A stretch of DNA of 64,000 nt, taken from NCBI GenBank assembly GCA_019113005.1, contig DXIE01000026.1, positions 15,760 to 79,759 of the forward strand, given 5' to 3'. The stretch's first letter is position 1; the number at the start of each line of letters is the position of its first letter. Position numbers and translations under genes: made by a program. The notes beneath the pieces are model-generated. The model saw only the letters and a program-made list of their open reading frames with translations. It made no database searches and was not told where the DNA came from. Of this stretch, positions 210 to 14,534 are shown piece by piece. The DNA comes from Candidatus Butyricicoccus avistercoris (GTDB taxonomy: Bacteria > Bacillota > Clostridia > Oscillospirales > Butyricicoccaceae).

Positions 210-239
210 ATCTCAATCACTCCCTTCAAAAAATCTCTG

Positions 240-362: not shown

Positions 363-378
363 CCGAGCGTTCTCGGTT

Positions 379-943: not shown

Positions 944-964
944 CAGGCATTTCCCCCTTTCAGG

Positions 965-1234: not shown

Positions 1235-1280
1235 TTATTTTTTCCTCCTGTCTATTCTGTTTTACGACCGCCCGCACTTT

Positions 1281-2084
1281 CTACAATCTATGTTCATTAT
1301 ATATACATGGTTTCAAGTCCGAAATAAAAGAAACCTTATTTTGTTTTTTCTTTCTTGACGGTCTACAAGGTCTATCAATAGATGTATCAGACAACATATA
1401 TTTCAAATATTTATATGCTCCAAACTCATTTTGTTCTGAGCTAGATTCTAATACATAAGCTCCTGCTGGTGGCTCAAGAAAAACTCTGTCATCAACCCAA
1501 TCAGATGACTGTTTAGGTTTATCCAAATTCTTTGATGGTGTCCACATTCGCTTACCATTTGATGTGCCAGCCTCTTTAGGCTCTTTTGCAAGATACTCAG
1601 CTAGAGCTTTATAATTTCTAACATCTATATTTTCTATTTCAATCATATCACCATAACGCCATAATGATTTTATAATATCAAAATCATTCTCTGTGCTATT
1701 TATTACAATATGATGATGATAGCGACCTTCCGAATGTTTATTCTCGGTTACATACAAATATTTAAGTTCTTGATTATGCTTTTTCCTGTGATTGCGTAAA
1801 TCACGGATAAACTGTCTTAAACATTTAACAGCATTTTGCCTTGTATCTGGTAAATCAATGTCACGATATGTAAGAGTTATAAATAAATCCTTACCAGTAA
1901 AATTAGCAGCTAAAATAAATTCCAACATTCTACAAGCAGCTTTTAAGTTCTGCCAACTTCTAGCTTTTGTGCTGATTTTAGTTTTAGCTTGCCTTACATG
2001 CTCTTTATCTTTTGGATAAGCAGCAGTATATATAATTTCTGAAACTAATCTACCAGCAATAATAGTTTTCCTGCGTTTAGCCAA
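1281..2084 (-). CDS. HUH-superfamily rolling-circle replication-type protein
   Basis: Motif I FITLTY, motif II RYHHHIVIN, motif III LAEYLAKE (YxxK), in the correct order. Confidence 0.8.
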   Translation of the reverse strand: MAKRRKTIIAGRLVSEIIYTAAYPKDKEHVRQAKTKISTKARSWQNLKAACRMLEFILAANFTGKDLFITLTYRDIDLPDTRQNAVKCLRQFIRDLRNHRKKHNQELKYLYVTENKHSEGRYHHHIVINSTENDFDIIKSLWRYGDMIEIENIDVRNYKALAEYLAKEPKEAGTSNGKRMWTPSKNLDKPKQSSDWVDDRVFLEPPAGAYVLESSSEQNEFGAYKYLKYMLSDTSIDRPCRPSRKKKQNKVSFISDLKPCIYNEHRL

Positions 2085-2101
2085 AATTGTTCACCTCTTT
2101 A

Positions 2102-2126
2102 AAATGTGTTCAAATTGAACACATTT
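2102..2126. repeat. Palindrome copy 1 (core GTGTTCAAATTGAACAC 2106-2122, extends to 25 bp)
   Basis: AAATGTGTTCAA-A-TTGAACACATTT between the MazG-like stop and the RBS of rep. Confidence 0.95.
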
Positions 2127-2394
2127 ATTTTTTCATTCTAGCAAGCTGTCTGTTGAGTTTATTTTCCATTGTAGAAATAATTTCGCTTTTGTCAATATGC
2201 ATTAAATACTGCATCTGCTCAAGCATAATAGTTACATCTGCCATTTCTTCGATTACAGCCTTTCTTCCACCCTCACCAGAAAGCAATTTACACATAGCAG
2301 AAGAAAGCTCAGAAGCCTCTTCTGCTAATTTTAAGCCTTGATTTCTAAAGCCATAATGTTTTGCAATTTTTTTAATATCTTTATAATGGTTCAT
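2125..2394 (-). CDS. MazG-like / NTP pyrophosphohydrolase
   Basis: KLAEEASEL...VIEEMADV (EExxE...EExxD all-alpha NTP-PPase motif). Confidence 0.75.
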   Translation of the reverse strand: MNHYKDIKKIAKHYGFRNQGLKLAEEASELSSAMCKLLSGEGGRKAVIEEMADVTIMLEQMQYLMHIDKSEIISTMENKLNRQLARMKK

Positions 2395-2716
2395 TTTCTT
2401 TCACTACTTTCTTAACAAGTTCATTGTATTCTTCTATCCACTCAATAGGGATTTCTTTTTTATCAAAAAAATATCTATTTACAGCATCATGAATATCAAC
2501 TAAGCGGATATTATTCAAAATATTTTTAGGCATTAAACCAAGAGGCGGTTTTTTTATCTGTGTTTTATCTTCCTCATCTGAAATAGGAATTTCAAAAGTT
2601 AATTCACTCATATCAGGTTCTAAATAAAACTCTATGTTAAGCACTACATCTTTTGATTTATCTCTAAATCCTAACTTTCTTTTTATAGCATTAAAAACCT
2701 TTTTAAACTTCTTCAT
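2381..2716 (-). CDS. Hypothetical phage protein
   Basis: ORF track; overlaps neighbours in operon fashion. Confidence 0.6.
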   Translation of the reverse strand: MKKFKKVFNAIKRKLGFRDKSKDVVLNIEFYLEPDMSELTFEIPISDEEDKTQIKKPPLGLMPKNILNNIRLVDIHDAVNRYFFDKKEIPIEWIEEYNELVKKVVKENEPL

Positions 2717-3149
2717 GTTCTTTCACCTGTTCCAAGTAACGTTTATGAGCTGCTTTCATTTCATCTTCATAAAGATAATCAATTTTTGTATCAGTAATTT
2801 GTTCAACTTTCATTCTTAGCTTTTCATCAGCGTATTCTTCATCATTATCAGTTTTCATTTTCTGATATTCCTTTGAAATTGAAAGCAAAGAATTTATAAA
2901 AGGTTGTATTCTCTTACTACCAAAACCATAAGCATCATTAACAGCAACGATTGCAAGCCAAAGAGCTTTTTGGTTCGACCTGTCAATTTTTATTTTCAGG
3001 GCAATATCTGTTGAAGTTTTTTCTACTCCTTCATAAACTAACTTACGTTTTGTAAGTTCGTCCATCAAAGTCATTCTTGCTGATCTGCCATGATGTTTAA
3101 ATTTTCTCTTTTTGCTTTTCGACATACCAGTTCCGCTCCCAATATTCAC
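2703..3149 (-). CDS. Hypothetical phage protein
   Basis: ORF track; LAIVAVNDAYGFGSKRIQPF segment resembles a common Clostridial phage family; start uncertain. Confidence 0.6.
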   Translation of the reverse strand: MNIGSGTGMSKSKKRKFKHHGRSARMTLMDELTKRKLVYEGVEKTSTDIALKIKIDRSNQKALWLAIVAVNDAYGFGSKRIQPFINSLLSISKEYQKMKTDNDEEYADEKLRMKVEQITDTKIDYLYEDEMKAAHKRYLEQVKEHEEV

Positions 3150-3528
3150 AATTTTCCCTTAAATCCCTATGTTTTAACTTATCACAAATACACTCACTTG
3201 TAATTCTTCCATCAGAAATATGTAGCATTCCTTGCTGTAAGTGTTTACAGCACAAACACTTTCCTTTTAGTTGTGATGTTGCAATATCAAGCTCAGATTT
3301 TACTTTCATAAGCTCATTCATAAGTTTGTTTTCAGTTGATTCATCTTTATCACCTGCAAACTGACTTAGTAACTCCATAACTTCACAACTTTGCTTTGAT
3401 TTTTTAAGTTCATCTATTGCTTGATTTATAATTGCACAGCCTTTGATTGTACAATTATGCTCATATCCGCAACCAAGACATTTATGTTTATCTGTTTTTA
3501 TGCGGTTTAATTCTTTTATAATATCCAT
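3097..3528 (-). CDS. Hypothetical Cys-rich phage protein
   Basis: ORF track; CLGCGYEHNC and CLCCKH clusters. Confidence 0.6.
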   Translation of the reverse strand: MDIIKELNRIKTDKHKCLGCGYEHNCTIKGCAIINQAIDELKKSKQSCEVMELLSQFAGDKDESTENKLMNELMKVKSELDIATSQLKGKCLCCKHLQQGMLHISDGRITSECICDKLKHRDLRENCEYWERNWYVEKQKEKI

Positions 3529-3544
3529 TGCTTAAACCTCAAAT

Positions 3545-3682
3545 TTACTTATTATTCTTGCACTCACTGCAAGGTGATTTATAACAAGGTGTACCTGAAT
3601 AACAACAATTCAAACAATCTTTTATAATTGATTGTTTTTTATCTAAACTTGAAACTTCCCATTTAAGTTTTATATTTTCCAT
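3545..3682 (-). CDS. Small Cys-rich hypothetical protein (45 aa)
   Basis: Manual translation MENIKLKWEVSSLDKKQSIIKDCLNCCYSGTPCYKSPCSECKNNK; fills an operon gap. Confidence 0.45.
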   Translation of the reverse strand: MENIKLKWEVSSLDKKQSIIKDCLNCCYSGTPCYKSPCSECKNNK

Positions 3683-3686
3683 TACT

Positions 3687-3839
3687 TTAACCCCTAAATA
3701 TATTATCTTTTTTATTTGTCAAACTAACTTTTAAACTCATTTTCCTGTGTGGACAATATTTCATGCGTTCTGGTCTACGCATAGCACTTTCGCATACACC
3801 AAACTTATTAAGCATCACACACCCCATAAAACACTGCAT
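3687..3839 (-). CDS. Small hypothetical protein (50 aa)
   Basis: Manual translation MQCFMGCVMLNKFGVCESAMRRPERMKYCPHRKMSLKVSLTNKKDNIFRG, RBS AGAGG. Confidence 0.4.
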   Translation of the reverse strand: MQCFMGCVMLNKFGVCESAMRRPERMKYCPHRKMSLKVSLTNKKDNIFRG

Positions 3840-3848
3840 AATAAACCT

Positions 3849-4109
3849 CTATTTATCATTACACTGCTTAATAATAATTTTCTTTTTATCTTTTATAATA
3901 TTCAGCATTAAAAACTCCTGTTCTCTCTGAAGTTCATCACCATGTATTGCAAAATAATTTAACAGTGCCAAAACTCCATTTTTATTCCACATATGTAGTC
4001 CTGTTAAACCATTAGCATTTAAAAACCATTTGTGAACATCTCTCAATGCTTGTATATAGCCTTCATTGTAAAGAATATCTAGTTTATCGCTCCAGTGTTG
4101 TTTTGTCAA
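3849..4109 (-). CDS. Hypothetical phage protein
   Basis: ORF track; 4-nt overlap with ssb stop. Confidence 0.6.
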   Translation of the reverse strand: MTKQHWSDKLDILYNEGYIQALRDVHKWFLNANGLTGLHMWNKNGVLALLNYFAIHGDELQREQEFLMLNIIKDKKKIIIKQCNDK

Positions 4110-4537
4110 AATGGCACATCTCCCTCATCGTCCAATTCAGTGAAATTGGGTTCAATGTTTGGTGCATAACTTGGCACTTGATAATTGGGTTCTGTTTGAC
4201 CGTTAGCCTCACGAGATTTTTTAGTTTCACCAAAGCTAATCTCATTTACATTTACCTCAATGGCAGTACGTTTGTTTCCGTTTTTATCCTTCCAGTTGCG
4301 TGACTGAATACGACCCTCAACAATAGCCATCATACCCTTGGTAAACCACTGTCTTATAAAATCTGCTTTTTGACCCCAAGCAGTACAATTTATAAAATCT
4401 GTTGTTTTTTCACCATTTGCAGTCTTAACATTACGGTCAATAGCCAGTGTGAAAGTACACACTGGCATATTATTATTTATATATTTGTGTTCAGGGTCAC
4501 GAGTTAAACGCCCCATCAGAATTGCTTTATTTAGCAT
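4106..4537 (-). CDS. ssb: Single-stranded DNA-binding protein
   Basis: MLNKAILMGRLTRDPE...TDFINCTAWG...VEGRIQSRNW; acidic C-terminal tail DDEGDVPF; start corrected to 4537. Confidence 0.95.
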   Translation of the reverse strand: MLNKAILMGRLTRDPEHKYINNNMPVCTFTLAIDRNVKTANGEKTTDFINCTAWGQKADFIRQWFTKGMMAIVEGRIQSRNWKDKNGNKRTAIEVNVNEISFGETKKSREANGQTEPNYQVPSYAPNIEPNFTELDDEGDVPF

Positions 4538-4553
4538 TTTATAAATCTTCCTT

Positions 4554-5435
4554 TCATGGTGCTTGAATTTCACACCAACATTGAGCTTCCCAAGAGAATA
4601 CAAAATAATCAAAATTGCCAAAAACGACCCTATACTCCCAATTCTCAAATTTATCTTTCCTAGCTAAAAGCATATTGCAAGGCTTTTTCGGTTTATCTCT
4701 TACTGGTTTCCACCACCAAGCTGGCACTGGCATTTCTTCAATTTCATCTACATCAATTTCAACTTCCTGAAATTGTTTTAATTCTTTTGCTGTTGGTGCT
4801 TTTTCTTCTTTTTTGCACTTTTCAGTGAAAGCCTTTTGTTTTTGCTCTGGCATTTTTGACATTTCATAAGCTACTGATGGAGATAATTCTCCATCAGTAA
4901 GCATTTCCTTACCCTCATTGGATAAGTTCTTTTCAATGGCTTGCATTTTTCCAATTTCGCTTGGACTTTCCTTGGTTATCTCCGCGATTTTATCCCTTAA
5001 TCGTCCATTAAATTTAAAACCTTTTTCTTTAAGAGATATCAAAGCCTCTTTAGTGCGTTTAACAGCCTCAACACGCTCAGCATAAGTTAATTCTCGTGTT
5101 TGAGTGTTAGTCTGTATCAGAGCTAGTGTTTCAAGCTCCGAATTAGCTTGACTAGATATAATACAAGGTACAGTTTCCCAGCCTAAACTTTTTATAGCTG
5201 CAAAACGTCTATGTCCCGCTATTAAAAGATAACCGTTACTACTTTTTGTAACTACTAAAGGCTGTTGAAGTCCAATAAGCTCAATACTTTCTGCAAGCTC
5301 ATCAACATTAGCAACTTCAAAGAAGTTTTCATCATTTGTTTTAATCTGAGAGCATTTAATATTTACAATTTCCAATGTGTTCAAATTGAACACATCTTCA
5401 TCTTTGAGTATTGCAGCAAGGTCAAATTTACTCAT
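4554..5435 (-). CDS. parB: ParB/RepB/Spo0J-family partition protein
   Basis: ELAESIELIGLQQPLVV...LIAGHRRFAA (GxxRxxA CTPase motif), followed by an HTH region. Confidence 0.9.
   Translation of the reverse strand: MSKFDLAAILKDEDVFNLNTLEIVNIKCSQIKTNDENFFEVANVDELAESIELIGLQQPLVVTKSSNGYLLIAGHRRFAAIKSLGWETVPCIISSQANSELETLALIQTNTQTRELTYAERVEAVKRTKEALISLKEKGFKFNGRLRDKIAEITKESPSEIGKMQAIEKNLSNEGKEMLTDGELSPSVAYEMSKMPEQKQKAFTEKCKKEEKAPTAKELKQFQEVEIDVDEIEEMPVPAWWWKPVRDKPKKPCNMLLARKDKFENWEYRVVFGNFDYFVFSWEAQCWCEIQAP
5377..5393. repeat. Palindrome copy 2, inside the 5' end of parB
   Basis: GTGTTCAAATTGAACAC; on the minus strand it encodes VFNLNT of ParB. Confidence 0.95.
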
Positions 5436-6195
5436 TACTTACACCCTCCAAATACTCATCAACAAATTTGCGGTATGTTCTGGCAGCCCAACAGTTTGGC
5501 GACCAGCTTATACAGCTTTCATTTGCATAAGCACTTTCGCCCACGCCATTAGAACGCCATATCATATTTTCAAAAATCTTTACTGGTAAATGTTTTCTGA
5601 AATAATCTGCACCTTGCATACAAAGTTCATCTTTTCTAAATTGAGTTATAAGCACCCCTGCAACATTTACATCTGGGTTAATTGCTTTCATACCGTTAAT
5701 TTGCTTTAAGAGGTTTTTAACTCCCTCTTGTTCGTAAACACCAACCGTAGTTGGAATTACTATATCATCAGCTGCACAAATAGCAGCAGCACAAGCAGCC
5801 GAAAAGCTAGGCGGACAATCTATAATCACAAAATCATAAGCATTGCCATCTCTTAAATTATTGCAAAAATCTAAAATTGCACTGTGATTTACCATACCAC
5901 TACGCAGAGTAGATAAATCCATTTTCATCAAATCAATAGAACTAGGAATTATATTTACATTCCTCAAGTATGTATGCTGAATTAAAAAACAGTTTTCCTT
6001 TATTTTGCCCTCTAACAAGTCGCACAAAGTAAAGCCATCAGTTACTGCTTTCATGTGCATGCTGAGATTATACTGACTATCAGCATCAATCAGTAAAACT
6101 CTTTTATCACGCTCAGCCAATATTGCAGCTGTATTTATTGCGGTTGTGGTCTTGCCAACACCGCCTTTTAAATTAACTATTGCTAAAACTTTCAT
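5428..6195 (-). CDS. parA: ParA/Soj-family ATPase
   Basis: Deviant Walker A KGGVGKTT, IDADSQ, IIDCPPS. Confidence 0.92.
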   Translation of the reverse strand: MKVLAIVNLKGGVGKTTTAINTAAILAERDKRVLLIDADSQYNLSMHMKAVTDGFTLCDLLEGKIKENCFLIQHTYLRNVNIIPSSIDLMKMDLSTLRSGMVNHSAILDFCNNLRDGNAYDFVIIDCPPSFSAACAAAICAADDIVIPTTVGVYEQEGVKNLLKQINGMKAINPDVNVAGVLITQFRKDELCMQGADYFRKHLPVKIFENMIWRSNGVGESAYANESCISWSPNCWAARTYRKFVDEYLEGVSNE

Positions 6196-6213
6196 AAAAA
6201 TCTAACCTCTTTT

Positions 6214-6369
6214 TTATACAGATAATTTTCCATTTATTATTTTTTGAGCTTCTTTGTACTTTTTAGTACCCATACATGTGTTAAAAGTAAACTCAATAAC
6301 TACAAAACGTTTTTCAGGGTGAACCCAGATTATATTTCCTGTCTTTCCTTTGATTTCTATAGTTTTCAT
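6214..6369 (-). CDS. Small hypothetical protein (51 aa)
   Basis: Manual translation MKTIEIKGKTGNIIWVHPEKRFVVIEFTFNTCMGTKKYKEAQKIINGKLSV; start overlaps the dnaB stop. Confidence 0.55.
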   Translation of the reverse strand: MKTIEIKGKTGNIIWVHPEKRFVVIEFTFNTCMGTKKYKEAQKIINGKLSV

Positions 6370-7691
6370 TATGCACCTGTTACAAATTTTTGTTGGACTA
6401 CTTTATCAAACTCATTTTCAATTTCAATAAAATAAACCCAGTCCTCTATAAATCTTTGATGTTTACCATCAAAGAACATTTTAAACTTTCCTGTCCTGCC
6501 CTCTTTTGCTTTAGCAATTTTAAGCCAACGGAGAGCATCTTGATTTTCAATATCATCAGGATTTTTCAGTTCATCATCATTAGGAATATATAGGAACAGG
6601 ATAACGTTTGCATCTTGTTCTATCTGACCTGATGAACGTAAGTCTGATGGGTCAGGCTCTTCATATTTTGTTATGTTACGGTTAAGCTGAGAAAGAGCTA
6701 CAACTGTAACATCAAGCTCAGTTGCAATATTTTTTAAAGCTGTTGAAGCATATGTTACACGCTCATATTCGCTATATTTTTTATTTGCATTTTGTATTAG
6801 TTGCAAATAATCAATAAAAACTATATCCAGTCTATCTTTGACAATATCACTTCTAATCTGCTCTGAAGTATAACCAGAAGCCTCATAGATTTTAAAATTT
6901 AGTTTTTTTCTTGCTGCACAGATTATATGCTCTACTTCTAACGGAGTTAAATTTCCGTCTTGAAGTTTTTCAAGAGCAACGCCAGCACTGGCAGCATTTA
7001 TTCTATCCATAATGGTTCGCCTATCAGTTTCCAATGAAAAGAAACCAACTCGGCAAAACTCACCTAAATGTCTACAAAACTGTAATGCCATAGCAGTTTT
7101 ACCAACACTAGGTCTAGCAGCTAAAACCACTAAGCCGTTTTTAGGACATCTAGCAGTTCTATTTAATTTATCAATACCAAAATCAACGAATTTTCGTGGA
7201 ACACCTAAGTTTTGAATGTACTCAACTTGTAATTCATTGTAGTCAAATACATTCTTTCGCTTTTTATTGCTAAGAATATTTACTAAGTTTTCAGCTTTTG
7301 TTCTTAATTCTTCAATATCCGTAAACATTGAAGTATCCAGCTTTATCTGTTCCATAAATTCTCTGGCATGATAAATAGCCGCTGAATTTTTGACCATTTC
7401 CCATACATCAAGCCACATAACAGCAGATGGAGTAAAATCCACCATAGCTTTACATTCTTTAAAAATATAATCTGATGTTTTACTACCAATGGTTTGAGGA
7501 GTGATTTCACTATCCTCGTTAAAGAGTTTTCTTGCAGTGTTAAAAATTAGCCTATGACTTTCAAAGATAAAATCCTTTTCTGTCATTCGCAAAATAATTT
7601 CGGCTGCTGCCTGTTTGTCTTGCAACATGCAACCAATCAGAATATGGCATGATTCAAGATAAGCATCACTGATAAAATATTCGTTGCTCAT
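6369..7691 (-). CDS. dnaB: Phage DnaB-like replicative helicase
   Basis: AARPSVGKT Walker A, FFSLE, VFIDYLQL, LSQLNR, DLRSSGQIEQDA. Confidence 0.93.
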   Translation of the reverse strand: MSNEYFISDAYLESCHILIGCMLQDKQAAAEIILRMTEKDFIFESHRLIFNTARKLFNEDSEITPQTIGSKTSDYIFKECKAMVDFTPSAVMWLDVWEMVKNSAAIYHAREFMEQIKLDTSMFTDIEELRTKAENLVNILSNKKRKNVFDYNELQVEYIQNLGVPRKFVDFGIDKLNRTARCPKNGLVVLAARPSVGKTAMALQFCRHLGEFCRVGFFSLETDRRTIMDRINAASAGVALEKLQDGNLTPLEVEHIICAARKKLNFKIYEASGYTSEQIRSDIVKDRLDIVFIDYLQLIQNANKKYSEYERVTYASTALKNIATELDVTVVALSQLNRNITKYEEPDPSDLRSSGQIEQDANVILFLYIPNDDELKNPDDIENQDALRWLKIAKAKEGRTGKFKMFFDGKHQRFIEDWVYFIEIENEFDKVVQQKFVTGA

Positions 7692-8503
7692 ATCTCTTGC
7701 ACACCCTTTCTTTTTTGTGTACCTGCCGATTTTACAGGCTGTTTTTCATCTGAATAATCTCTTTTCAGCCAATTCAGCAGTGTTGCATAATGGCTGTTAT
7801 ATTTCTTTTTGGGATTGTTCTCCAAGTAGATTGATAAATTCTCAATTTCGCTTTCTACCTGTTCAGTTCCCCAGCGTTTGTTGAGCTTATCAAGCTCCGC
7901 TTGAGTTAGCTGAACATTTTGAAATTCTCCAAAAGTCAATTTATTTTTTTCTTGAGAGAGTGTAACGACGTTAGTCGTTTTTTCCCCCTCTCTCTTATAT
8001 TTTAACTCTTTACTCTTAACTCTTAACTCTTGTCGGACATTGTCTGACGGAATGTCTTGTTCAGTGTCTTGGACAATCATTTGGACATTGTCTTGTGGAA
8101 TGTCTAAAGCTAATTGTTTTTTCTTTTGTCTGTATTTAGCTTTATCAATCGCATATTGTGTTGTGTAACCAACCATGCTTGGCACTTCTGGCAATCGCAT
8201 GAAGTTACAGTTTTCATCAGCCTCATAAACTAAACCGATTTTCTTGTATAGTTCTAAAGCTACACGCACAACATCAACATTCATTTTTGTAATTTCAGCT
8301 ATCTTGTTCACGTCATAAGGAATAATCATGTCACCGATTTGACGTGTCAAAATGCCATTGTTATTAGCTGTTTTAAGGCATAGCTTTAGGTATAAAACTA
8401 CATAAGCATAGCCGTTATTTTGTTCTGCCAACCAGTCAATTCTTTCATCTTCAAAGAAATTTACATTCAGCTGTAAATACCAATATTTTTTATTTTCTGC
8501 CAT
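7688..8503 (-). CDS. Phage replisome organiser / replication initiator (lambda O analogue)
   Basis: N-terminal KKYWYLQLNVNFFEDERID...YLKLCL typical of Phage_rep_org_N; C-terminal KYNSHYATLLNWLKRD; upstream of the helicase. Confidence 0.85.
   Translation of the reverse strand: MAENKKYWYLQLNVNFFEDERIDWLAEQNNGYAYVVLYLKLCLKTANNNGILTRQIGDMIIPYDVNKIAEITKMNVDVVRVALELYKKIGLVYEADENCNFMRLPEVPSMVGYTTQYAIDKAKYRQKKKQLALDIPQDNVQMIVQDTEQDIPSDNVRQELRVKSKELKYKREGEKTTNVVTLSQEKNKLTFGEFQNVQLTQAELDKLNKRWGTEQVESEIENLSIYLENNPKKKYNSHYATLLNWLKRDYSDEKQPVKSAGTQKRKGVQEI
8035..8105. repeat. Iteron-like repeats within the initiator gene (probable ori)
   Basis: GGACATTGTCTGACGGAATGTCT (8035-8057) and GGACATTGTCTTGTGGAATGTCT (8083-8105), 20/23 identical; adjacent TTAACTC tandem run at ~8002-8030. 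Confidence 0.65.
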
Positions 8504-8580
8504 GATTTCACCTCTTTTGGGTATGCTACCGCCAGTCTAGGGTAAAAATCCCTAAGCTGTGCATAATTCTGTGTATTTTG

Positions 8581-8609
8581 TTGACAATTTGCTTTTTAAG
8601 TGATAAAAT
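8581..8609 (+). promoter_or_regulatory. Consensus sigma-A promoter, antisense to the early operon
   Basis: TTGACA (8581-8586), 17 bp, TAAAAT (8604-8609), with extended -10 TG at 8601-8602. Confidence 0.8.
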
Positions 8610-8615
8610 AAGTTT

Positions 8616-8714
8616 AGATTTTATAAACAAAACCTCAAAAAATATTTATAAAAATCTAACCTTTTTACTTATCGTCTGACTGTTTAAACCTCACACAGTC
8701 GGGCGATTTTTTTT
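8616..8714 (+). ncRNA. Candidate ~100-nt antisense sRNA (OOP-like)
   Basis: Bounded by the promoter above and a 13-bp hairpin (8671-8683 / 8695-8707) plus T-run; no sense ORF; overlaps the 3' end of the cII-like gene; start site estimated. Confidence 0.55.
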
Positions 8715-9160
8715 GTTTTTTTTACGAAGAAATTCAAAGCCATAGCAGCCTCCATAATTTCCTCAAGCTCGTCCATGATGTTTTGATAATCTTCTAGCTC
8801 ATCAGAACTAACCAAGCCATCTTCTGCTATTTCAAGCAAAGTATCATCTTGATTATTCTTATCAAACTTATCAAGCAGCCTAACAAGTCGCATTGCAGCC
8901 TGTTCCATGCTGTACGGAACAACTTCTGGTAAAAGGTCGCATAATGGACTTGACATTAGATGCTGATATCCCAAATAAGGATATTGGTATACATCAATCA
9001 TGTTTGCAACAATGTCATCAGCTGGTCTACGTTTACCCGTTTCATAAGCTCGAATACTTTCAACGCTAATATGTAGTTGTTCGGCTACTGACTCTTGAGT
9101 AAAAACCGTTTTTTCACGAGCTGATTTATAAATATTTATGTTGATATTCATACTGGTCAA
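8684..9160 (-). CDS. XRE HTH protein with CII-like C-terminal helical domain
   Basis: N-terminal HTH (TQESVAEQLHISVESIRAYETG); C-terminal IAEDGLVSSDELEDY...ELEEI pattern; sits between xis-like and initiator genes. Confidence 0.7.
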   Translation of the reverse strand: MTSMNININIYKSAREKTVFTQESVAEQLHISVESIRAYETGKRRPADDIVANMIDVYQYPYLGYQHLMSSPLCDLLPEVVPYSMEQAAMRLVRLLDKFDKNNQDDTLLEIAEDGLVSSDELEDYQNIMDELEEIMEAAMALNFFVKKTKKIARLCEV

Positions 9161-9164
9161 CCCC

Positions 9165-9437
9165 TTATTTTTGCTTTATATTAGACTTAGGTTCAATATA
9201 AAGCGTTTTTATTTCTGTTTCTTCAATCCCTAAAGACTTTAAAAAAGGTATTCTAGGGATTTTTACTCTAGTCCCCCAAAGCAGAGTTGGAAAACCCAGA
9301 GTATCTGGAGCATAGCGAGCCTTAAAGCGTATTGCCTGAGGGTCACAACAAAGGACTTTTGCAACCTCAGCAGGAGTGAAGTAATCTCTGTTAATTGCTA
9401 AAAGCTCTTTCATGTTATCGCTCATGTTATTTCTCAC
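9165..9437 (-). CDS. Excisionase-like HTH DNA-binding protein
   Basis: YFTPAEVAKVLCCDPQAIR...LGFP...GTRVKIPRIPF winged-helix pattern; follows cro. Confidence 0.6.
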   Translation of the reverse strand: MRNNMSDNMKELLAINRDYFTPAEVAKVLCCDPQAIRFKARYAPDTLGFPTLLWGTRVKIPRIPFLKSLGIEETEIKTLYIEPKSNIKQK

Positions 9438-9445
9438 CCTTCGTT

Positions 9446-9655
9446 TTAAACTTTGCTAATAGTGAAATTTTTAGGTGTGAAAAGCTCTGAAATATCACAG
9501 TTAAGTATTTCTGCTATTTTCTTTGCACATTCACATGGTATACTTCTGTTACCATTTTCATACTGACAATAGGTAGATATTGCGATATTCAATTCATTAG
9601 CAATATCTTTTTGTGTTATTTTTGCTGTTTTTCTTTTTTCCTCTAATATATTCAT
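9446..9655 (-). CDS. cro: Cro-like XRE regulator
   Basis: 69-aa HTH (TQKDIANELNIAISTYCQYENG), divergent from the repressor. Confidence 0.8.
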   Translation of the reverse strand: MNILEEKRKTAKITQKDIANELNIAISTYCQYENGNRSIPCECAKKIAEILNCDISELFTPKNFTISKV

Positions 9656-9668
9656 ATCATCACCTCAC

Positions 9669-9723
9669 TTTCACTTTTAGAGAAGTATATTTGTATTATA
9701 ATTTCACATTTAGAGAATGTCAA
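9669..9723 (-). promoter_or_regulatory. Lytic promoter P_R with two operator-like repeats
   Basis: Minus strand TTGACA (9723-9718), 17 bp, TATAAT (9700-9695); repeats TTTCACTTTTAGAGAA (9669-9684) and TTTCACATTTAGAGAA (9702-9717, filling the spacer). Confidence 0.8.
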
Positions 9724-9814
9724 TAATAAAATTTGCAATTTGCAAAAAAACATTCACAATAAATAAAATAAATGTTATCATTTTTACATAATGAGAAGTA
9801 GAGGCATACGCAAT

Positions 9815-10174
9815 ATGAACATTGGTCAACGCATAAAAAAACTCAGAGAAGATGAGCATTTATCTCAACTCGAACTTGCAAAAATAATAAATGTTTGCAA
9901 TACAACTGTATCTCAATATGAAAATGGTTCACGAACACCAAGCGATGATATAAAAATCAAACTTGCAAATTATTTTAATGTATCTACTGATTATTTACTC
10001 GGACTATCTGACAATGAAAAAGAGCCCACTCAAGAGGAATGGGACTCCTTGACCGATACTCAAAAACAAATTATTGAGTTAATGGGTAAATTATCACCTG
10101 AGCAACAGGACGAACTTGTTCGTCAAGCTCGGTATCAGCTTTGGCTATTACTTCAAAAAGACGCTGAGCAATAA
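9815..10174 (+). CDS. CI-like repressor (XRE HTH; no peptidase domain visible)
   Basis: MNIGQRIKKLREDEHLSQLELAKIINVCNTTVSQYENG...VSTDYLLG; start moved to ATG 9815. Confidence 0.85.
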   Translation: MNIGQRIKKLREDEHLSQLELAKIINVCNTTVSQYENGSRTPSDDIKIKLANYFNVSTDYLLGLSDNEKEPTQEEWDSLTDTQKQIIELMGKLSPEQQDELVRQARYQLWLLLQKDAEQ

Positions 10175-10335
10175 AAGCATTATAGTCTTTTTGTTGTAAT
10201 GTGTAATTTGACATTGTTAGTAGACTAAACATTTCTTTTTGTTCTTTAGTCATCGGTATGCACCGTCCTTTTTGGTTATTTACCAAAATTTTCACATAAA
10301 AGAAAATATAACAAAACAACTGAAAAAATAAAAAT

Positions 10336-10352
10336 GTGTTCAAATTGAACAC
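10336..10352. repeat. Palindrome copy 3
   Basis: GTGTTCAAATTGAACAC, 23 nt before the start of lipoprotein 1. Confidence 0.95.
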
Positions 10353-10375
10353 ATTTCTTTTTAGGGGGAATTTTT

Positions 10376-10999
10376 TTGAAGAAATTATTGTTAGTTTTAG
10401 CATTAACTTGCGTTATTCTTTCTGGTTGTGGTAGTAACAATACTCAAACCGACACTACAAAAAGTGCCACAAATAGCAGTCAAAATAGCTCAACATCAGA
10501 AGTATCATCAGAAAATAATTCGGAAATTGAAAATTCACAGCCTGTTGTGCCTACTTTTGGCAAAACAGCTCAATCATTTATTGATGTAATGCGTCCTTAT
10601 GCTCAAGAACAAGACGCAAATTTATTTACTCAAGAACCTAAAGTTTCTGAAATGGAAGCTGGTGAATATTTACCAGAAGTTACTGTTTATGATTATGCGG
10701 TTGGAAATGCAGGTAGCTTAATTTTATATGAAGTAAAATCTACTGGTGAATTTTATCAGGCTTTATTAGCTTTTGATATATCAAAAGAAGATGAAACATC
10801 AATTTTATCTTTAGGTAGAGTAAGCGGTTTGATGATGGCAATGTTAGAACCAGATGAAAATACTAGAATGATTATAGATGAAGATTTAAAAACTTCTAAT
10901 ATTTCTGAAGATGCTACTACTTATGCTACTGGTACAATTGCATCATGGGTATATAATGTTAATTCAGGTCAAACATATTTAACAGCAATAGCATCATAA
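10376..10999 (+). CDS. Prophage lipoprotein 1 (unknown function)
   Basis: Signal peptide with lipobox LSGC, Ser/Thr/Asn-rich linker, TTG start after GGGGG RBS. Confidence 0.85.
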   Translation: MKKLLLVLALTCVILSGCGSNNTQTDTTKSATNSSQNSSTSEVSSENNSEIENSQPVVPTFGKTAQSFIDVMRPYAQEQDANLFTQEPKVSEMEAGEYLPEVTVYDYAVGNAGSLILYEVKSTGEFYQALLAFDISKEDETSILSLGRVSGLMMAMLEPDENTRMIIDEDLKTSNISEDATTYATGTIASWVYNVNSGQTYLTAIAS

Positions 11000-11007
11000 A
11001 TAAAAAT

Positions 11008-11024
11008 GTGTTCAAATTGAACAC
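11008..11024. repeat. Palindrome copy 4
   Basis: GTGTTCAAATTGAACAC, 8 nt after the lipoprotein 1 stop and 23 nt before lipoprotein 2. Confidence 0.95.
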
Positions 11025-11047
11025 TTTTCTTTTAAGGGGGAATATTC

Positions 11048-11791
11048 TTGAAAAAATTATTGTTAATTTTCGCATTAACCTGTGTTATTCTTTCTGGTTG
11101 TAGTAGTAACAGTCAGCAAACAGATAACTCTAAATCTTCTGTACAAAGTACAAGTAGCGGTCAAAGCAGTGAAACATCAAAGGAAGAAACTCAAAAAGAA
11201 GATTTATCTAAAGAATTGGAAAATATTAAAGTAACAGCATCTCTAGATGAAATGATGGGATATGAAAAAGTTACAATAGAAAATACCAGTTCTTATGTAT
11301 TTACAAGCAGTGTTCATGTAAGGTTTTATAATTCTAATAACAAAATGGTTGGCAATGATACAATTTTTGTAGAGTCTTTAGCTCCTGGTGACTATACTTG
11401 GGCTAATATATCTGTGTCAGAACTTGGAGAATTATCTTTTAAATATGATTTCTCTATGAATTATGAATTTACTGAACCTCAATCTGTAAGTAACAATCAA
11501 ACTGTTAATGATGATTGGTCTGCTGAAATGACAGAGAAAATGTCTGGCTTTCAAAATACATCTTGGTATCCATTTATAGAAGAAATAAATGTATATAATG
11601 GTGATGGAGAACGTGATGCACTGGTTATTGCTATTGTTTCCAGCAATACTTCACAGGAAGATATTGACCGAATAGGTAACACTATCTTTGGAAATTTTGC
11701 TTTTGGTACAGGAGCAGACCGTAGTTTTGATGTTATTTCTGTATCAGTACAAAATAGCAATGGTGATGAGTTATTTCTTCGTACAAAATAA
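11048..11791 (+). CDS. Prophage lipoprotein 2 (FxLYD-like Ig-type domain)
   Basis: Lipobox LSGC; VTIENTS...VRFYNSNNKMVG...VESLAPGD resembles FxLYD domains. Confidence 0.8.
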   Translation: MKKLLLIFALTCVILSGCSSNSQQTDNSKSSVQSTSSGQSSETSKEETQKEDLSKELENIKVTASLDEMMGYEKVTIENTSSYVFTSSVHVRFYNSNNKMVGNDTIFVESLAPGDYTWANISVSELGELSFKYDFSMNYEFTEPQSVSNNQTVNDDWSAEMTEKMSGFQNTSWYPFIEEINVYNGDGERDALVIAIVSSNTSQEDIDRIGNTIFGNFAFGTGADRSFDVISVSVQNSNGDELFLRTK

Positions 11792-11815
11792 TTTATAATA
11801 CACAGTAAATAAAAA

Positions 11816-11832
11816 GTGTTCAATTTGAACAC
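11816..11832. repeat. Palindrome copy 5 (central base T)
   Basis: GTGTTCAATTTGAACAC, 22 nt before lipoprotein 3. Confidence 0.95.
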
Positions 11833-11854
11833 TTTTCTTTTAAGGGGGAATTTT

Positions 11855-12730
11855 ATGAAAAAGCTACTATTAGGGTTAATTCTTTCTAGCCTACTTCTTA
11901 CTGGGTGCAATCAAAATAACGAAAATGCATCTAGCTCACAAGATAATAATTCTTCTGTGGAACAAACATTAGAAGTAACAGATAAAGAAATGACATTAAC
12001 CTTAAACTTCTGGAACAGTGATGATAGACTTAATTATTCAAGTTTAGAAAAAACAGGTATATATACTGGTGAAGTTGATGAAAACGGATTGCCTTCTGGA
12101 CATGGACGTTTTGATACAGAAAACAGCGAAGGGCTTCCTTGGTATTATGACGGAGAATTTTCTAACGGCTCATTTAATGGTATTGGTAAATGTGTATGGG
12201 AAAAACAAGAAGGTGTAAGAGAGAACGACTATATTGAATATGGTAATTATAAAGATGGCTTATTTGTTCCAACAAAAAGCCAGTTGTTAATGCATTTAGG
12301 ACAACCAGATATGAACTTTGGTGAATTTAGTGTTAGCGATAAAAGCATTGCTTTCATTGATTCACACGAAAACCTTTTCCCTACTTATACCGAATCTGAT
12401 TTGCAAGAATTAGAATCTTACGTAGACCGTACAATAGAATATAAACATTTAATGAAAGCACCAGACAAATATTTAGAAAATATTATAGAAATAAAAGATG
12501 CTATAATATATCAGATTTTTGAAAATGATTTATGTGGACATACAGTAACATCTATTCTAGCTGGTAATTTAAATGGAGATTATTACACCATATATTTTGA
12601 CCGTTCATTAGAACTTTATCAGGGTGACAGCATTTCTTTCTTAGGACTTCCAATAGCTTCATCTTGGTTTGAAAATGTTTCTGGTGGTGTAACTAATAAC
12701 TTTGTAGTGTATGGTTGTAGTATATTTTAA
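11855..12730 (+). CDS. Prophage lipoprotein 3 (MORN-like repeats plus OB-fold-like C-terminus)
   Basis: Start corrected to ATG 11855 (RBS GGGGG); lipobox LTGC; YTGEVDENGLPSGHGRF / YDGEFSNGSFNGIGK MORN-like repeats; YKHLMKAPDKY C-terminal pattern. Confidence 0.8.
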   Translation: MKKLLLGLILSSLLLTGCNQNNENASSSQDNNSSVEQTLEVTDKEMTLTLNFWNSDDRLNYSSLEKTGIYTGEVDENGLPSGHGRFDTENSEGLPWYYDGEFSNGSFNGIGKCVWEKQEGVRENDYIEYGNYKDGLFVPTKSQLLMHLGQPDMNFGEFSVSDKSIAFIDSHENLFPTYTESDLQELESYVDRTIEYKHLMKAPDKYLENIIEIKDAIIYQIFENDLCGHTVTSILAGNLNGDYYTIYFDRSLELYQGDSISFLGLPIASSWFENVSGGVTNNFVVYGCSIF

Positions 12731-12732
12731 AA

Positions 12733-12749
12733 GTGTTCAAATTGAACAC
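12733..12749. repeat. Palindrome copy 6
   Basis: GTGTTCAAATTGAACAC, 2 nt after the lipoprotein 3 stop. Confidence 0.95.
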
Positions 12750-12750
12750 A

Positions 12751-12785
12751 AAAAATTTCCCGTCCTTATATGGGCGGGATTTTTT
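12751..12785 (+). terminator. Intrinsic terminator between the lipoprotein array and the integrase
   Basis: TCCCGTCC / GGGCGGGA hairpin followed by a T-run. Confidence 0.75.
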
Positions 12786-12802
12786 ATAAGAGGTGAAAAT
12801 TT

Positions 12803-13993
12803 ATGATATGTATAAATAAGCGATGCGGTAAAGAGATACCAAACGAGTCAAAATTTTGTATGTATTGCGGAAAAAATCAAAAAGAAAAAGCCCGCACTAA
12901 AAGAGCGAATGGTGAAGGCTCAATATATCAAATGCCAGATAAGCGTTGGAAAGCTGAAATAGTGCTAGGCTATGAAATTGATGGATATAGTGGAAAACTT
13001 AGAAAAGTACGCAGAACAAAAATAGCAGATACAAAATCCGAGCTTGTAGAACTAATGCCTGATTGGAGAAAACAATGCATACAAGAATATAAAGCACTTA
13101 TAAAAGCAATAGAGCCAACTCCACAACCTGAACTGGAACAGGCAAAAAACACTACCACTACCCTATCTGATTGTTGGAAAATATATTGTGACTCTCGTGC
13201 ATACGATGGACTAAGTAAATCACAAAAACAAAAACTTGGGTATGCATGGAATAAGTCTGAAGCACTGCATGATAAACCAATAAAAGAAATAACACTTGAT
13301 GATATGCAAGAAATAGTAGATACAAAAGCACCGACATATTATCCAGCAAAGGATATAAGAACAGTGCTATCACATTGTATGAATGTAGCTATTAAACGAG
13401 ATTTAATAAACTTTAATCGTACCGAATATTTAGAACTTCCATCATTAAAAGCCTCAGAACGACAGCCATTTACAAATGATGATATAGAAACATTCTGGAA
13501 TGCATGGGAAAAATATGGCGGTTTTGTTGGCTATATCTTAGTTATGATATATGCAGGACTTCGACCTGGTGAACTAAGAGGACTGCAAATAGAGAATATA
13601 AATCTTAAAGAGCAGTATATGACAGGCGGTATTAAGACTGATGCAGGACGTAATAGAACTATACCAATAGCAGATAGAATAGTCCCAGTATTAGCAAAAC
13701 TTATATCTGAACGAACATCAGGAAAACTTGTAACAATGAGTGAAGATAGATTTTATGCAAGTTATTGGGATACCATAGAACGCTTACAAGTTACACGCTT
13801 GCAGCCTTACTCGTGTAGACACACATATTTTACACGACTAGCAGAAGCAGATGTGCAACCTGGAGTAATAACAGCAGCAGGTGGACATGAGTCATACTCA
13901 ACTACAATGACCTACACCCATGTAAGATTAGAAAAACTACTTGATGCAGTAAATAAAATAGACCCTAAAAACGGCAAGAGCCAGAGCAATTGA
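12803..13993 (+). CDS. int: Tyrosine integrase with N-terminal zinc ribbon
   Basis: CINKRC...FCMYCG, RANGEGSIYQ arm-binding motif, catalytic GLRPGE, YSCRHT, GGH, TTMTY. Confidence 0.95.
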   Translation: MICINKRCGKEIPNESKFCMYCGKNQKEKARTKRANGEGSIYQMPDKRWKAEIVLGYEIDGYSGKLRKVRRTKIADTKSELVELMPDWRKQCIQEYKALIKAIEPTPQPELEQAKNTTTTLSDCWKIYCDSRAYDGLSKSQKQKLGYAWNKSEALHDKPIKEITLDDMQEIVDTKAPTYYPAKDIRTVLSHCMNVAIKRDLINFNRTEYLELPSLKASERQPFTNDDIETFWNAWEKYGGFVGYILVMIYAGLRPGELRGLQIENINLKEQYMTGGIKTDAGRNRTIPIADRIVPVLAKLISERTSGKLVTMSEDRFYASYWDTIERLQVTRLQPYSCRHTYFTRLAEADVQPGVITAAGGHESYSTTMTYTHVRLEKLLDAVNKIDPKNGKSQSN

Positions 13994-14005
13994 GCTCTGG
14001 CTTTT
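13976..14005 (+). terminator. Integrase terminator
   Basis: AGCCAGAGC / GCTCTGGCT stem followed by TTT. Confidence 0.75.
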
Positions 14006-14143
14006 ATATTGGGAAATAATAGGGGGACAGTTCGTGGCGTGCATTAGAGTAGAGATGATAATACTTATTCAAAAATCAATAATTTGAATGATTTACCGCC
14101 ACTAACATAAGTATACATTAGGCTTATACATAAATCAATATAA

Positions 14144-14175
14144 AAGTGGGAATTAAGTGGGAATAAAAATGGAAT
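14144..14175. repeat. Arm-type integrase binding site candidates
   Basis: AAGTGGGAAT at 14144-14153 and 14155-14164, plus degenerate AATGGAAT, between int and the tRNA. Confidence 0.55.
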
Positions 14176-14314
14176 GAAAGAGGAACGAAAACAAACCACT
14201 TATACTTTTAACTGCTATTAAACCATAATAAGCATTAAATATAAGGATTTACACCCCATCTGTACCCCATGCTAAAATAGGCTAAAAAGTTGTATAAAAC
14301 AGACTAAAAGCAAT

Positions 14315-14346
14315 AAAAAAACGCTGTAACTAAGTGTTACAGCGTT
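14315..14346 (-). terminator. Terminator immediately downstream of tRNA-Ser(GCT)
   Basis: Perfect 11-bp stem AACGCTGTAAC / GTTACAGCGTT with a T-run on the minus strand. Confidence 0.75.
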
Positions 14347-14349
14347 ATA

Positions 14350-14439
14350 TGGCGGAGAAAGAGGGATTTGAACCCTCGCGACACTTTCGCGCCCTACTCC
14401 CTTAGCAGGGGAGCCCCTTCACCACTTGGGTATTTCTCC
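14350..14439 (-). tRNA. tRNA-Ser(GCT); probable prophage integration target
   Basis: GGAGAAATACCCAAGTGG...CTGCTAA anticodon loop, long variable arm, GGTTCAAATCC T-arm, encoded CCA. Confidence 0.95.
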
Positions 14440-14445
14440 AGCTTG

Positions 14446-14534
14446 TGGCGGAGAGGGTGGGATTCGAACCCACGCGCCCTCTCGGACAAACGGTTTTCAA
14501 GACCGCCTCGTTATGACCACTTCGATACCTCTCC
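14446..14534 (-). tRNA. tRNA-Ser(TGA)
   Basis: GGAGAGGTATCGAAGTGG...CTTGAAA anticodon loop, GGTTCGAATCC, encoded CCA. Confidence 0.95.

What the first reader, a model, noticed from the sequence alone, without database searches (positions are those of the whole stretch)
10320..12790. Cassette-like array of three unrelated lipoproteins punctuated by a 17-bp palindrome, next to the integrase
Seen: the layout is palindrome-gene-palindrome-gene-palindrome-gene-palindrome (10336, 11008, 11816, 12733), then a terminator, then int. Each unit starts with nearly the same leader (AAAAA(T)GTGTTCAAWTTGAACAC-TTTCTTTT-AGGGGG-start, 22-23 nt from palindrome to start). Units 1 and 2 also share a near-identical signal peptide at DNA level (MKKLLLVLALTCVILSGC vs MKKLLLIFALTCVILSGC), while the mature domains are unrelated. 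Known: the cI-int interval of temperate Firmicutes phages often holds superinfection-exclusion lipoproteins. Inferred: this is an integron-like or recombination-shuffled array of interchangeable surface modules behind a standard leader/signal-peptide adaptor, possibly a variable exclusion or host-interaction locus.
Basis: partly seen in the sequence, partly recalled or inferred. Interest (0 to 1): 0.85.

Follow-up and report, generated by a model that had tools for sequence, protein, structure and literature searches.

The report
Phage accessory-gene array bounded by parS-like palindromes
In a prophage of a Butyricicoccus-like gut bacterium, the accessory genes between the repressor and the integrase are each bounded by a 17-bp palindrome. 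The same site also lies inside parB and in front of rep, so it is most likely the phage's ParB-binding (parS-type) site, and near-identical prophages carry different gene sets that change at these boundaries.

Summary
GTGTTCAAWTTGAACAC stands at 10336, 11008, 11816 and 12733. A conserved leader, TTTCTTTT-N-AGGGGG, ends 22-23 nt before each start. Three lipoprotein genes with unrelated mature parts follow, then a terminator and int.

The palindrome is not specific to the array. Two more copies lie inside the 5' end of parB (5377) and just upstream of rep (2106). There are none elsewhere in the 1.98-Mb genome.

Distant relatives (ParB 34-45% identical, some in high-GC DNA) keep the same or a symmetrically changed palindrome in parB, before rep and next to int. 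Two diverged relatives have one copy only, between parA and parB. It is therefore most likely the phage's parS-type ParB site (inferred, about 65%).

The cassette idea is partly right. Related prophages carry Lpp1-Lpp2-Lpp3, Lpp2-Lpp3, a DEDDh exonuclease plus Lpp3, an HsdR_N-like gene plus Lpp3' plus a membrane protein, or Lpp2' plus a zinc-ribbon protein. A palindrome marks every boundary.

Crossover points differ from case to case: inside the signal peptide, in the leader, or at the palindrome edge. Leaders are mosaic. This fits homologous exchange at repeated boundary motifs, as with T4 PeSLs, and not an integron-like mechanism.

The parts
10336..10352 (.). Palindrome P1 (GTGTTCAAATTGAACAC), the left boundary of the array
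10353..10375 (+). Leader 1: ATTTCTTTTT-AGGGGG (RBS), then a TTG start
   Evidence: (D2)
10376..10999 (+). Lpp1, a 207-aa lipoprotein (lipobox LSGC) with no Pfam family
11008..11024 (.). Palindrome P2
11048..11791 (+). Lpp2, a 247-aa lipoprotein. The model shows an Ig-like beta-sandwich plus an alpha/beta domain. No functional match was found.
11816..11832 (.). Palindrome P3 (central T)
11855..12730 (+). Lpp3, a 291-aa lipoprotein with a MORN repeat. It is close to an ORFan, with 4 clusters among 5.8 billion proteins.
12733..12749 (.). Palindrome P4, the terminal boundary. No leader or gene follows it.
12758..12785 (+). Strong intrinsic terminator that closes the array
12803..13993 (+). Tyrosine integrase with an N-terminal zinc ribbon
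10326..10452 (+). 127-nt direct repeat (copy 2 at 10998-11124, 88% identical): A-run, palindrome, leader, signal peptide and the start of the linker. The crossover of the Lpp1 gain/loss variant lies inside it.
5377..5393 (.). Palindrome inside the parB coding sequence (codons 15-20, VFNLNT)
4554..5435 (-). parB (ParB_N domain, GHRRFAA box). The closest solved structures are Noc and Spo0J.
5428..6195 (-). parA (Walker-type ParA ATPase)
2106..2122 (.). Palindrome 2 nt after the MazG-like stop and 21 nt before the rep start
1281..2084 (-). HUH-type replication initiator (PF23343, phrog_3584)
9791..10174 (+). cI-like XRE repressor directly upstream of the array, on the same strand
14350..14534 (-). 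Two tRNA-Ser genes at the prophage/host junction

Best explanation
Window 1-14340 is the right end of an integrated temperate phage that also carries a complete ParA/ParB module.

The 17-bp palindrome is a multi-copy protein-binding site of this phage family. It is most likely the parS-type site of the phage's own ParB (inferred).

The cI-int interval is an accessory-gene (moron) array that appears to be co-transcribed with the repressor and to end at the terminator before int (inferred from sequence). Every gene in it is framed as stop, palindrome, T-rich leader with the AGGGGG ribosome-binding site, then start. One further palindrome closes the array.

Related prophages carry different gene sets in this array (shown). 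The most likely cause is homologous recombination between co-resident or co-infecting relatives at the repeated 20-130-bp boundary sequences: palindrome, leader and, for lipoproteins, the signal-peptide codons (inferred). This would swap lipoprotein, nuclease and other cassettes, much as the PeSL motifs of T4-type phages do.

What ParB binding does to the array is untested. It could silence transcription or block RNA polymerase after induction, or form a clustered centromere.
For: **Site statistics.** There are 6 copies in 10.6 kb and none in the other 1.97 Mb.

**Family-wide conservation at fixed positions.**
- The site lies directly upstream of rep homologues that are only about 39% identical, at or inside the parB 5' end, and in the cI-int interval. 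This holds in high-GC phages with no flanking T-runs.
- Records that are 80-100% complete carry 2-6 sites dispersed along the genome, and the reversed control pattern gives 0.

**Symmetry is selected inside the parB coding sequence.** VFNLNT, VSNLDT, VSKSDT and VSNSDT arise from paired T>C and A>G changes in the two arms.

**All copies in one genome change together.** G084 uses GTGGTCCAASTTGGACCAC at both cassette boundaries and before rep. L121 uses GTGTCCAATTTGGACAC twice.

**Link to ParB rather than other proteins.**
- Two diverged relatives (one record 100% complete, the other 84%) have a single copy, exactly between parA and parB, and none near rep.
- The 100% complete one lacks the p158 regulator.
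- Immunity regions differ among phages that share the site.
- ParB has the GxxRxxA box and matches Noc and Spo0J.

**Array turnover.** Five or more compositions occur in near-identical prophages, always with a palindrome at each boundary.

**Variable junctions and mosaic leaders.**
- The Lpp2-Lpp3 form has unit-1 leader and codons fused to the unit-2 signal peptide.
- Lpp3' carries a unit-1-type start and Lpp2' a unit-3-type signal peptide.
- Homology to the exonuclease variant breaks at 11812, the left edge of P3.
Against: - No binding data exist.
- The putative ParB recognition helix shows no clean covariation with the site variant.
- Rep co-occurs with the site in almost all relatives.
- In this low-GC lineage the palindrome sits in an A-run/T-run context that a simple scan calls terminator-like, so an RNA-level role cannot be excluded.
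- The extra terminal palindrome (n+1 sites for n genes) is not required by exchange through the leader. It hints that the palindrome itself matters for cassette boundaries.
- No phage recombinase gene was recognised near the array.
Confidence: 0.6

Rival explanations
1. Integron-like or other site-specific cassette system. A recombinase (the tyrosine Int, the HUH Rep or ParB itself) cuts and rejoins at the palindrome and moves palindrome-bounded cassettes.
For: Every cassette boundary carries the palindrome, and each array has n+1 palindromes for n genes, including a terminal one with no leader. One homology breakpoint lies at the palindrome edge.
Against: - The same site lies inside parB and before rep and is dispersed genome-wide in relatives. 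A recombinase acting on it would delete essential genes.
- Junction positions vary, and one lies inside the signal-peptide codons.
- The architecture persists with a serine integrase.
- The site is 8-1-8 with no 6-8-bp spacer, unlike tyrosine-recombinase core sites (established knowledge).
- Int sits at a tRNA-Ser attachment junction like an ordinary phage integrase.
Confidence: 0.12
2. The palindrome acts mainly in RNA or transcription. It would be a leaky intrinsic terminator, or a stabilising or processing hairpin between cistrons placed just before each ribosome-binding site, with no dedicated DNA-binding protein.
For: It lies 2-27 nt after a stop and about 22 nt before the next start. P1-P3 are flanked by A-runs and T-runs and are flagged as terminator-like. 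Hairpin energies are -10.7 to -13.8 kcal/mol for the segments that contain them.
Against: - The exact 17-nt sequence is kept across phages with 34-45% protein identity and very different GC content, where no T-run follows.
- All copies in a genome change together.
- Copies inside parB tolerate C-A mismatches in the mRNA sense strand (GTGTCCAAATTGAACAC), which fits degenerate half-sites better than a hairpin.
- Sites occur all round 38-kb genomes.
Confidence: 0.12
3. The palindrome is the recognition or nick site of the HUH Rep (a rolling-circle origin element), not of ParB.
For: A copy lies directly upstream of rep in nearly all relatives, and Rep co-occurs with the site.
Against: - Two diverged relatives keep only the copy at parA/parB and none near rep.
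- Several origin-like sites per genome would give subgenomic circles.
- The site and its immediate flanks are symmetric (G...C extension in high-GC relatives), as for a dimeric HTH protein and unlike asymmetric nick sites (established knowledge).
Confidence: 0.1
4. Old tandem duplication of one lipoprotein gene with its upstream ParB site, followed by divergence of the mature parts. No ongoing exchange.
For: Units 1 and 2 share 127 nt at 88% identity.
Against: The mature domains show no similarity. Unrelated cytoplasmic proteins occupy the same slots behind the same leader. Closely related prophages (int 97-98% identical) differ in content.
Confidence: 0.03

Closest known systems
PeSL (promoter-early stem-loop) mobile regulatory cassettes of T4-type phages (PMC2839356, PMC4122927)
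   Same: A short composite regulatory motif is repeated at the borders of non-essential ORFs in a hyperplastic region. Insertions, deletions and replacements between near-identical phages map to the motif. Exchange is attributed to recombination between motif copies.
   Different: PeSLs are a sigma-70 promoter plus a terminator stem-loop in lytic myoviruses. Here the motif is a perfect 17-bp palindrome that is also found inside parB and before rep and is conserved family-wide as a probable ParB site. It is followed by an RBS leader, and no promoter is evident. PeSL mini-circles were shown experimentally and could not be looked for here.
Dispersed centromere sites IR1-IR4 of the plasmid-prophage N15 (cited in PMC7205306), and the multiple KorB operator sites of plasmid RK2
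   Same: A ParB-family protein has several single palindromic sites scattered over a phage or plasmid genome instead of one centromere block. Bound ParB can silence nearby promoters.
   Different: N15 is not integrated, and its sites do not frame accessory genes. This phage has both int and parAB, and four of its six sites frame a gene array. The RK2 comparison comes from my own knowledge and was not checked in a paper. Binding and silencing are untested here.
Integron gene cassettes (attC/IntI)
   Same: Promoterless ORFs in one orientation, each followed by an imperfectly conserved palindromic element, next to a tyrosine recombinase gene. Content varies between relatives.
   Different: The element is a 17-bp perfect palindrome rather than a 57-141-bp attC. 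It occurs outside the array in essential genes. Junctions are not at a fixed position. The recombinase is an ordinary phage integrase at a tRNA site, and a serine-integrase relative has the same layout.
Superinfection-exclusion and moron loci between repressor and integrase in temperate Firmicutes phages (for example the Ltp lipoprotein of Streptococcus phage TP-J34; from my own knowledge)
   Same: Same position and strand, lipoprotein products and probable expression in the lysogen.
   Different: No sequence or fold match to Ltp or any known exclusion protein was found. The regular palindrome punctuation has not been described for those loci as far as my searches went.

Membership tests
ParABS partition system | ParA Walker-type ATPase | tested here: met
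   5428-6195(-): PF13614/PF01656/PF10609 and phrog_164 ParA-like
ParABS partition system | ParB with the ParB_N (CTP-binding) domain and GxxRxxA box | tested here: met
   PF02195 at 1.6e-14. GHRRFAA is present. Best PDB matches are Noc and Spo0J at about 1e-12.
ParABS partition system | Palindromic parS site(s) in or next to the par operon and repeated on the replicon | tested here: met
   A copy lies inside the parB 5' end. It is conserved with compensatory changes in relatives. It is the sole copy, between parA and parB, in two diverged relatives.
ParABS partition system | ParB binds the site, and the site stabilises a replicon | not testable with these tools
   Needs a gel shift, ChIP or a plasmid-stability assay.
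Integron | attC-type recombination sites found only at cassette ends | tested here: not met
   17-bp perfect palindrome. It is also found inside parB, before rep and genome-wide in relatives.
Integron | Constant crossover point at the site | tested here: not met
   Crossovers lie inside the signal-peptide codons, in the leader and at the palindrome edge.
Integron | IntI-type integrase dedicated to cassettes | tested here: inconclusive
   Int is a PF00589/phrog_1 phage integrase at a tRNA-Ser junction. The IntI-specific insertion was not examined. A serine-integrase phage has the same cassette layout.
PeSL-like mobile regulatory cassettes | Repeated composite motif flanking variable ORFs, with indels between close relatives mapping to the motif | tested here: met
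PeSL-like mobile regulatory cassettes | The motif contains a promoter and an effective terminator | tested here: inconclusive
   No convincing promoter was found. The hairpins are weak and only scan-level terminator-like.
PeSL-like mobile regulatory cassettes | Mini-circles formed by motif-to-motif recombination | not testable with these tools
Bacterial lipoproteins | Signal peptide ending in a lipobox L-x-[GAS]-C | tested here: met
   LSGC, LSGC and LTGC at residues 15-18
Known superinfection-exclusion or defence proteins | Homology to a described family | tested here: not met
   Lpp1-3 have no PADLOC hits and no informative Pfam, PHROG or fold match. Only the exonuclease cassette of sister prophages hits DEDDh and PDC-S48.

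The most novel reading that the evidence does not exclude
The parS-type palindrome is itself the unit boundary of a new kind of phage gene cassette. ParB sites would both regulate the accessory genes, in a KorB-like way that silences or blocks transcription once ParB is made, and act as the preferred exchange points. Any ORF framed by two sites could then move between phages that share the ParB specificity. Each ParB/site variant (GTGTTCAAWTTGAACAC, GTGGTCCAASTTGGACCAC, GTGTCCAATTTGGACAC) would define its own exchange group.
Probability: 0.3. Interest if true: 0.75.

Novelty: new variant of a known kind. Interest (0 to 1): 0.62.

Why it matters
Temperate gut phages carry fast-changing accessory genes for exclusion, defence and surface proteins. 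How these genes are swapped is mostly described only as "moron hot spots". Here the swap points are marked by a defined, family-conserved element that is probably the phage's own ParB site.

- This gives a simple sequence rule for finding such arrays and their cargo in metagenomes. The cargo here includes lipoproteins, a DEDDh exonuclease and an HsdR_N-like protein.
- It suggests that a partition protein may also organise or regulate accessory genes in integrated prophages.
- It offers a tractable model for motif-mediated modular exchange outside T4-type phages.

It is an ordinary prophage in other respects.

Tried and rejected
**Searches that gave little or nothing**
- Public phage records by DNA: no match.
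- Integrase relatives in viral contigs: none.
- The G084 variant palindrome in viral contigs: one hit only.
- Leader pattern in metagenome contigs: one contig, with the same Lpp2-Lpp3-int order.
- The palindrome as text in papers: none.
- A literature search for parS in temperate phages: nothing on this layout.

**Candidates ruled out as the binder**
- cI/Cro: no site lies in the cI-cro intergenic region, and the immunity modules differ among phages with the same site.
- The p158 regulator: it is absent from a complete relative that has the site.

**Tests that did not settle anything**
- Covariation between the ParB recognition helix and the site variant gave no clear signal.
- L101 looked like a replaced Lpp2, but the difference is a scaffold gap of N's.
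- Lpp2 gave only generic Ig-like fold matches. The Lpp3 model was too poor to search, with mean pLDDT 57.6.
- attL was not found, because the contig starts inside the prophage.

Full report
**1. What is in the window**

Positions 1 to about 14340 are the right-hand end of an integrated siphovirus-type prophage.

On the minus strand lie:
- an HNH endonuclease gene and a small-terminase-like gene at the window start;
- an HUH-type rep gene (1281-2084);
- a MazG-like gene, several small ORFs and ssb;
- parB (4554-5435) and parA (5428-6195);
- a DnaB helicase gene, a replisome-organiser gene and an XRE-type regulator gene, called p158 here (8684-9160);
- a cro-like gene.

On the plus strand lie:
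- a cI-like XRE repressor (9791-10174);
- three lipoprotein genes;
- a terminator;
- a tyrosine integrase (12803-13993).

Two tRNA-Ser genes follow at 14350-14534. The contig starts inside the prophage, so attL is not available.

**2.

- The palindrome GTGTTCAAWTTGAACAC is at 10336, 11008, 11816 and 12733.
- The leader (A/T)TTTCTTTT(A/T)AGGGGG follows the first three copies, and the start codon lies 22-23 nt after the palindrome.
- Units 1 and 2 share 127 nt at 88% identity. As protein this covers residues 1-46 only.
- The mature parts of the three proteins are unrelated.
- All three proteins have a lipobox.
- A strong terminator at 12758-12779 closes the array.

**3. The palindrome is not specific to the array**

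The window has six exact copies against 0.02 expected by chance. The extra two lie inside the parB coding sequence (codons 15-20) and 21 nt before the rep start. The rest of the 1.98-Mb genome has none, even with a degenerate pattern and one mismatch. The 15.8 kb of structural genes to the left has none within four mismatches.

**4. It is a conserved site of a whole phage family**

- An exact-match scan of IMG/VR gave 52 stretches. Many lie in phages whose ParB, ParA, Rep and DnaB are only 30-48% identical to those here.
- The site recurs at the same places: directly before rep, at or inside the parB 5' end, and between the repressor and int.
- In the high-GC relatives the flanks are GC-rich with no T-run. 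The site there is extended symmetrically to G-17mer-C.
- Six related virus records, 80-100% complete, have 2-6 sites matching GTGTYCRAWTYGRACAC spread over the whole 30-40 kb genome. The reversed control pattern gives none.
- In the family of the host genome, 16 of 164 genomes carry the exact site.

**5. Symmetry is under selection, and copies change together**

- Inside parB the encoded peptide varies (VFNLNT, VSNLDT, VSKSDT, VSKLNT, VSNSDT) while the DNA stays palindromic. This happens through paired T>C and A>G changes in the two arms.
- The G084 prophage (ParB 59% identical) has no copy of the window's site. It has three copies of GTGGTCCAASTTGGACCAC instead. Two frame its single lipoprotein gene behind the same leader, and one precedes rep.
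- L008 has GTGTCCAATTCGGACAC twice, one of them in parB.
- L121 has GTGTCCAATTTGGACAC twice, each before a secreted-protein gene.

**6. Who binds it?**

- cI and Cro are excluded. No copy lies in their intergenic region, and phages with different immunity modules share the site.
- p158 is excluded. A 100%-complete relative with the site lacks it.
- ParB and Rep both co-occur with the site.
- Two diverged relatives point to ParB. One record is 100% complete and the other 84%. Each has a single copy, exactly in the gap between parA and parB, and none near rep.
- ParB has the ParB_N domain with a GHRRFAA box and matches Noc and Spo0J.
- Among seven IMG/VR records with the site that are at least 90% complete, five have the ParB homologue. 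The other two carry the 17-mer once, in unrelated iteron-like contexts.
- I could not show covariation between the ParB recognition helix and the site variant.

I therefore put ParB as the binder at about 65%. This is inferred, not shown.

**7. The array really is modular**

Exact-protein look-ups of Lpp3, Lpp2 relatives and int variants gave these layouts between the repressor and the integrase:

| Layout | Loci |
|---|---|
| Lpp1-Lpp2-Lpp3 | window, L095, L099; L101 is the same with a scaffold gap |
| Lpp2-Lpp3 | L096, L097, L098, L100 |
| 379-aa DEDDh exonuclease + Lpp3 | L103, L110, G083 |
| HsdR_N-like 361 aa + Lpp3' (87%) + 222-aa membrane protein | L114 |
| Lpp2' (88%) + 118-aa zinc-ribbon protein | L117-L120 |
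| one lipoprotein | G084; G024/L020 |
| a DUF4236 gene behind one palindrome | high-GC relatives, L112 |

In the first six layouts every boundary reads stop, 2-27 nt, palindrome, leader, start. One extra palindrome precedes the terminator. One more distant phage (L124) has a palindrome only before its first cassette.

The int genes of the variants that keep Lpp3 unchanged are 97-98% identical to the window's, and in most of them the shared flanks are 93-100% identical as DNA.

**8. How the content changes**

- **Lpp2-Lpp3 form.** It has the unit-1 leader and first codons joined to the unit-2 signal peptide. The crossover therefore lies inside the 127-nt repeat, downstream of the palindrome.
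- **Exonuclease variant.** Its homology to the window starts at 11812, four bases before P3. On the left it keeps the unit-1 leader up to the start codon.
- **Mosaic 5' ends.** Lpp3' in L114 has a unit-1-type start (TTGAAGAAATTATTGTTA). Lpp2' in L117 has the unit-3-type signal peptide.
- **Interpretation.** Junctions at varying positions within shared sequence are the signature of homologous recombination or gene conversion, not of a site-specific enzyme.
- **Other points against a site-specific system.** The same layout occurs in a phage with a large serine recombinase. Copies inside parB and before rep would make a palindrome-specific recombinase destructive.
- **The best point for the rival view.** There are n+1 palindromes for n genes, and the terminal one has no leader.

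**9. Expression (inferred only)**

No terminator separates cI from the array, and the strong terminator comes after P4. The genes are therefore probably made in the lysogen together with the repressor.

P1-P3 sit in an A-run/T-run context, and the simple scan flags them as weak terminators in both directions. In this low-GC lineage they may also attenuate transcription.

parB lies in the early lytic operon. ParB would then appear after induction and could occupy the four sites. The effect is unknown.

**10. The cargo**

- Lpp1-3 have no informative family hits.
- Lpp3 has 4 clusters and Lpp2 has 8 clusters among 5.8 billion proteins.
- The Lpp2 model (pLDDT 79) is an Ig-like sandwich plus an alpha/beta domain with only generic matches.
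- The Lpp3 model was poor.
- The exonuclease cassette hits DEDDh and the defence-candidate family PDC-S48.

An exclusion or defence role for the array is plausible but untested.

**11. Comparison with known systems**

- The nearest functional analogue for the exchange is the PeSL motif of T4-type phages (PMC2839356, PMC4122927).
- The nearest analogue for the site distribution is the set of dispersed SopB sites IR1-4 of N15 (PMC7205306). The KorB operators of RK2 are a second analogue, cited from my own knowledge.
- It is not an integron (see the membership table).
- I found no paper describing this palindrome or this layout.

**12. Verdict**

The integron reading is not supported. The reading of interchangeable modules behind a standard leader is supported and extended.

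The new element is that the module boundaries are the phage's own probable ParB sites. I rate it a new variant of known kinds, with interest 0.62.

Noticed in passing
window 5377-5393 and relatives: The parB N-terminal peptide V-[FS]-[NK]-[LS]-[ND]-T is encoded by the palindrome itself. Amino-acid changes come in pairs (F with N, S with D) that keep the DNA symmetric, so a DNA constraint is visible in the protein sequence.
   Followed up: yes
L007:1920-1938: A ParB 72% identical to the window's lacks the palindrome at the equivalent place and has a different one there, ATTTGATGCTAAATCAAAT. This may be a switch of site specificity. The contig is too short to see other copies.
   Followed up: partly
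window 10071-10295 (-): A 74-aa ORF (MTKEQKEMF...) runs antisense across the 3' end of the cI-like gene. It is called as a gene in several relatives and conserved in G084 (78 aa). It may be a real small gene or a by-product of DNA conservation.
   Followed up: no
L103:4950-6089; L114:6872-7957: Sister prophages carry, in the same slots, a 379-aa zinc-ribbon plus DEDDh exonuclease (PADLOC DEDDh and PDC-S48 hits) and a 361-aa HsdR_N-like protein. Both are candidate anti-phage genes.
   Followed up: partly
G083:C54 end; L129, L130 ends; L101:5930-5960: Metagenome contigs often stop, or carry an N gap, at the leader/signal-peptide repeat. The array is therefore under-assembled in public data, and variants are probably under-counted.
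   Followed up: partly
window 1281-2084 and 6369-8503: The prophage has both an HUH-type Rep and a DnaD-like organiser with a DnaB helicase. It also has both int and parAB. This double equipment is shared by the whole phage family.
   Followed up: partly
L121:2166 and 4400: A phage with a large serine recombinase has the same palindrome-leader-secreted-protein layout, with the variant site GTGTCCAATTTGGACAC and its own leader ATGGAGGTTTTTATG. An Lpp2 homologue (54%) and an RNase_T protein lie nearby.
   Followed up: partly
L045:5200-5260; L023:1433-1500: Two complete, unrelated phages hold the 17-mer once, inside iteron-like repeats (GTTCAAA runs; TTATCCACA boxes). These look like unrelated origin regions, not members of this system.
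   Followed up: no
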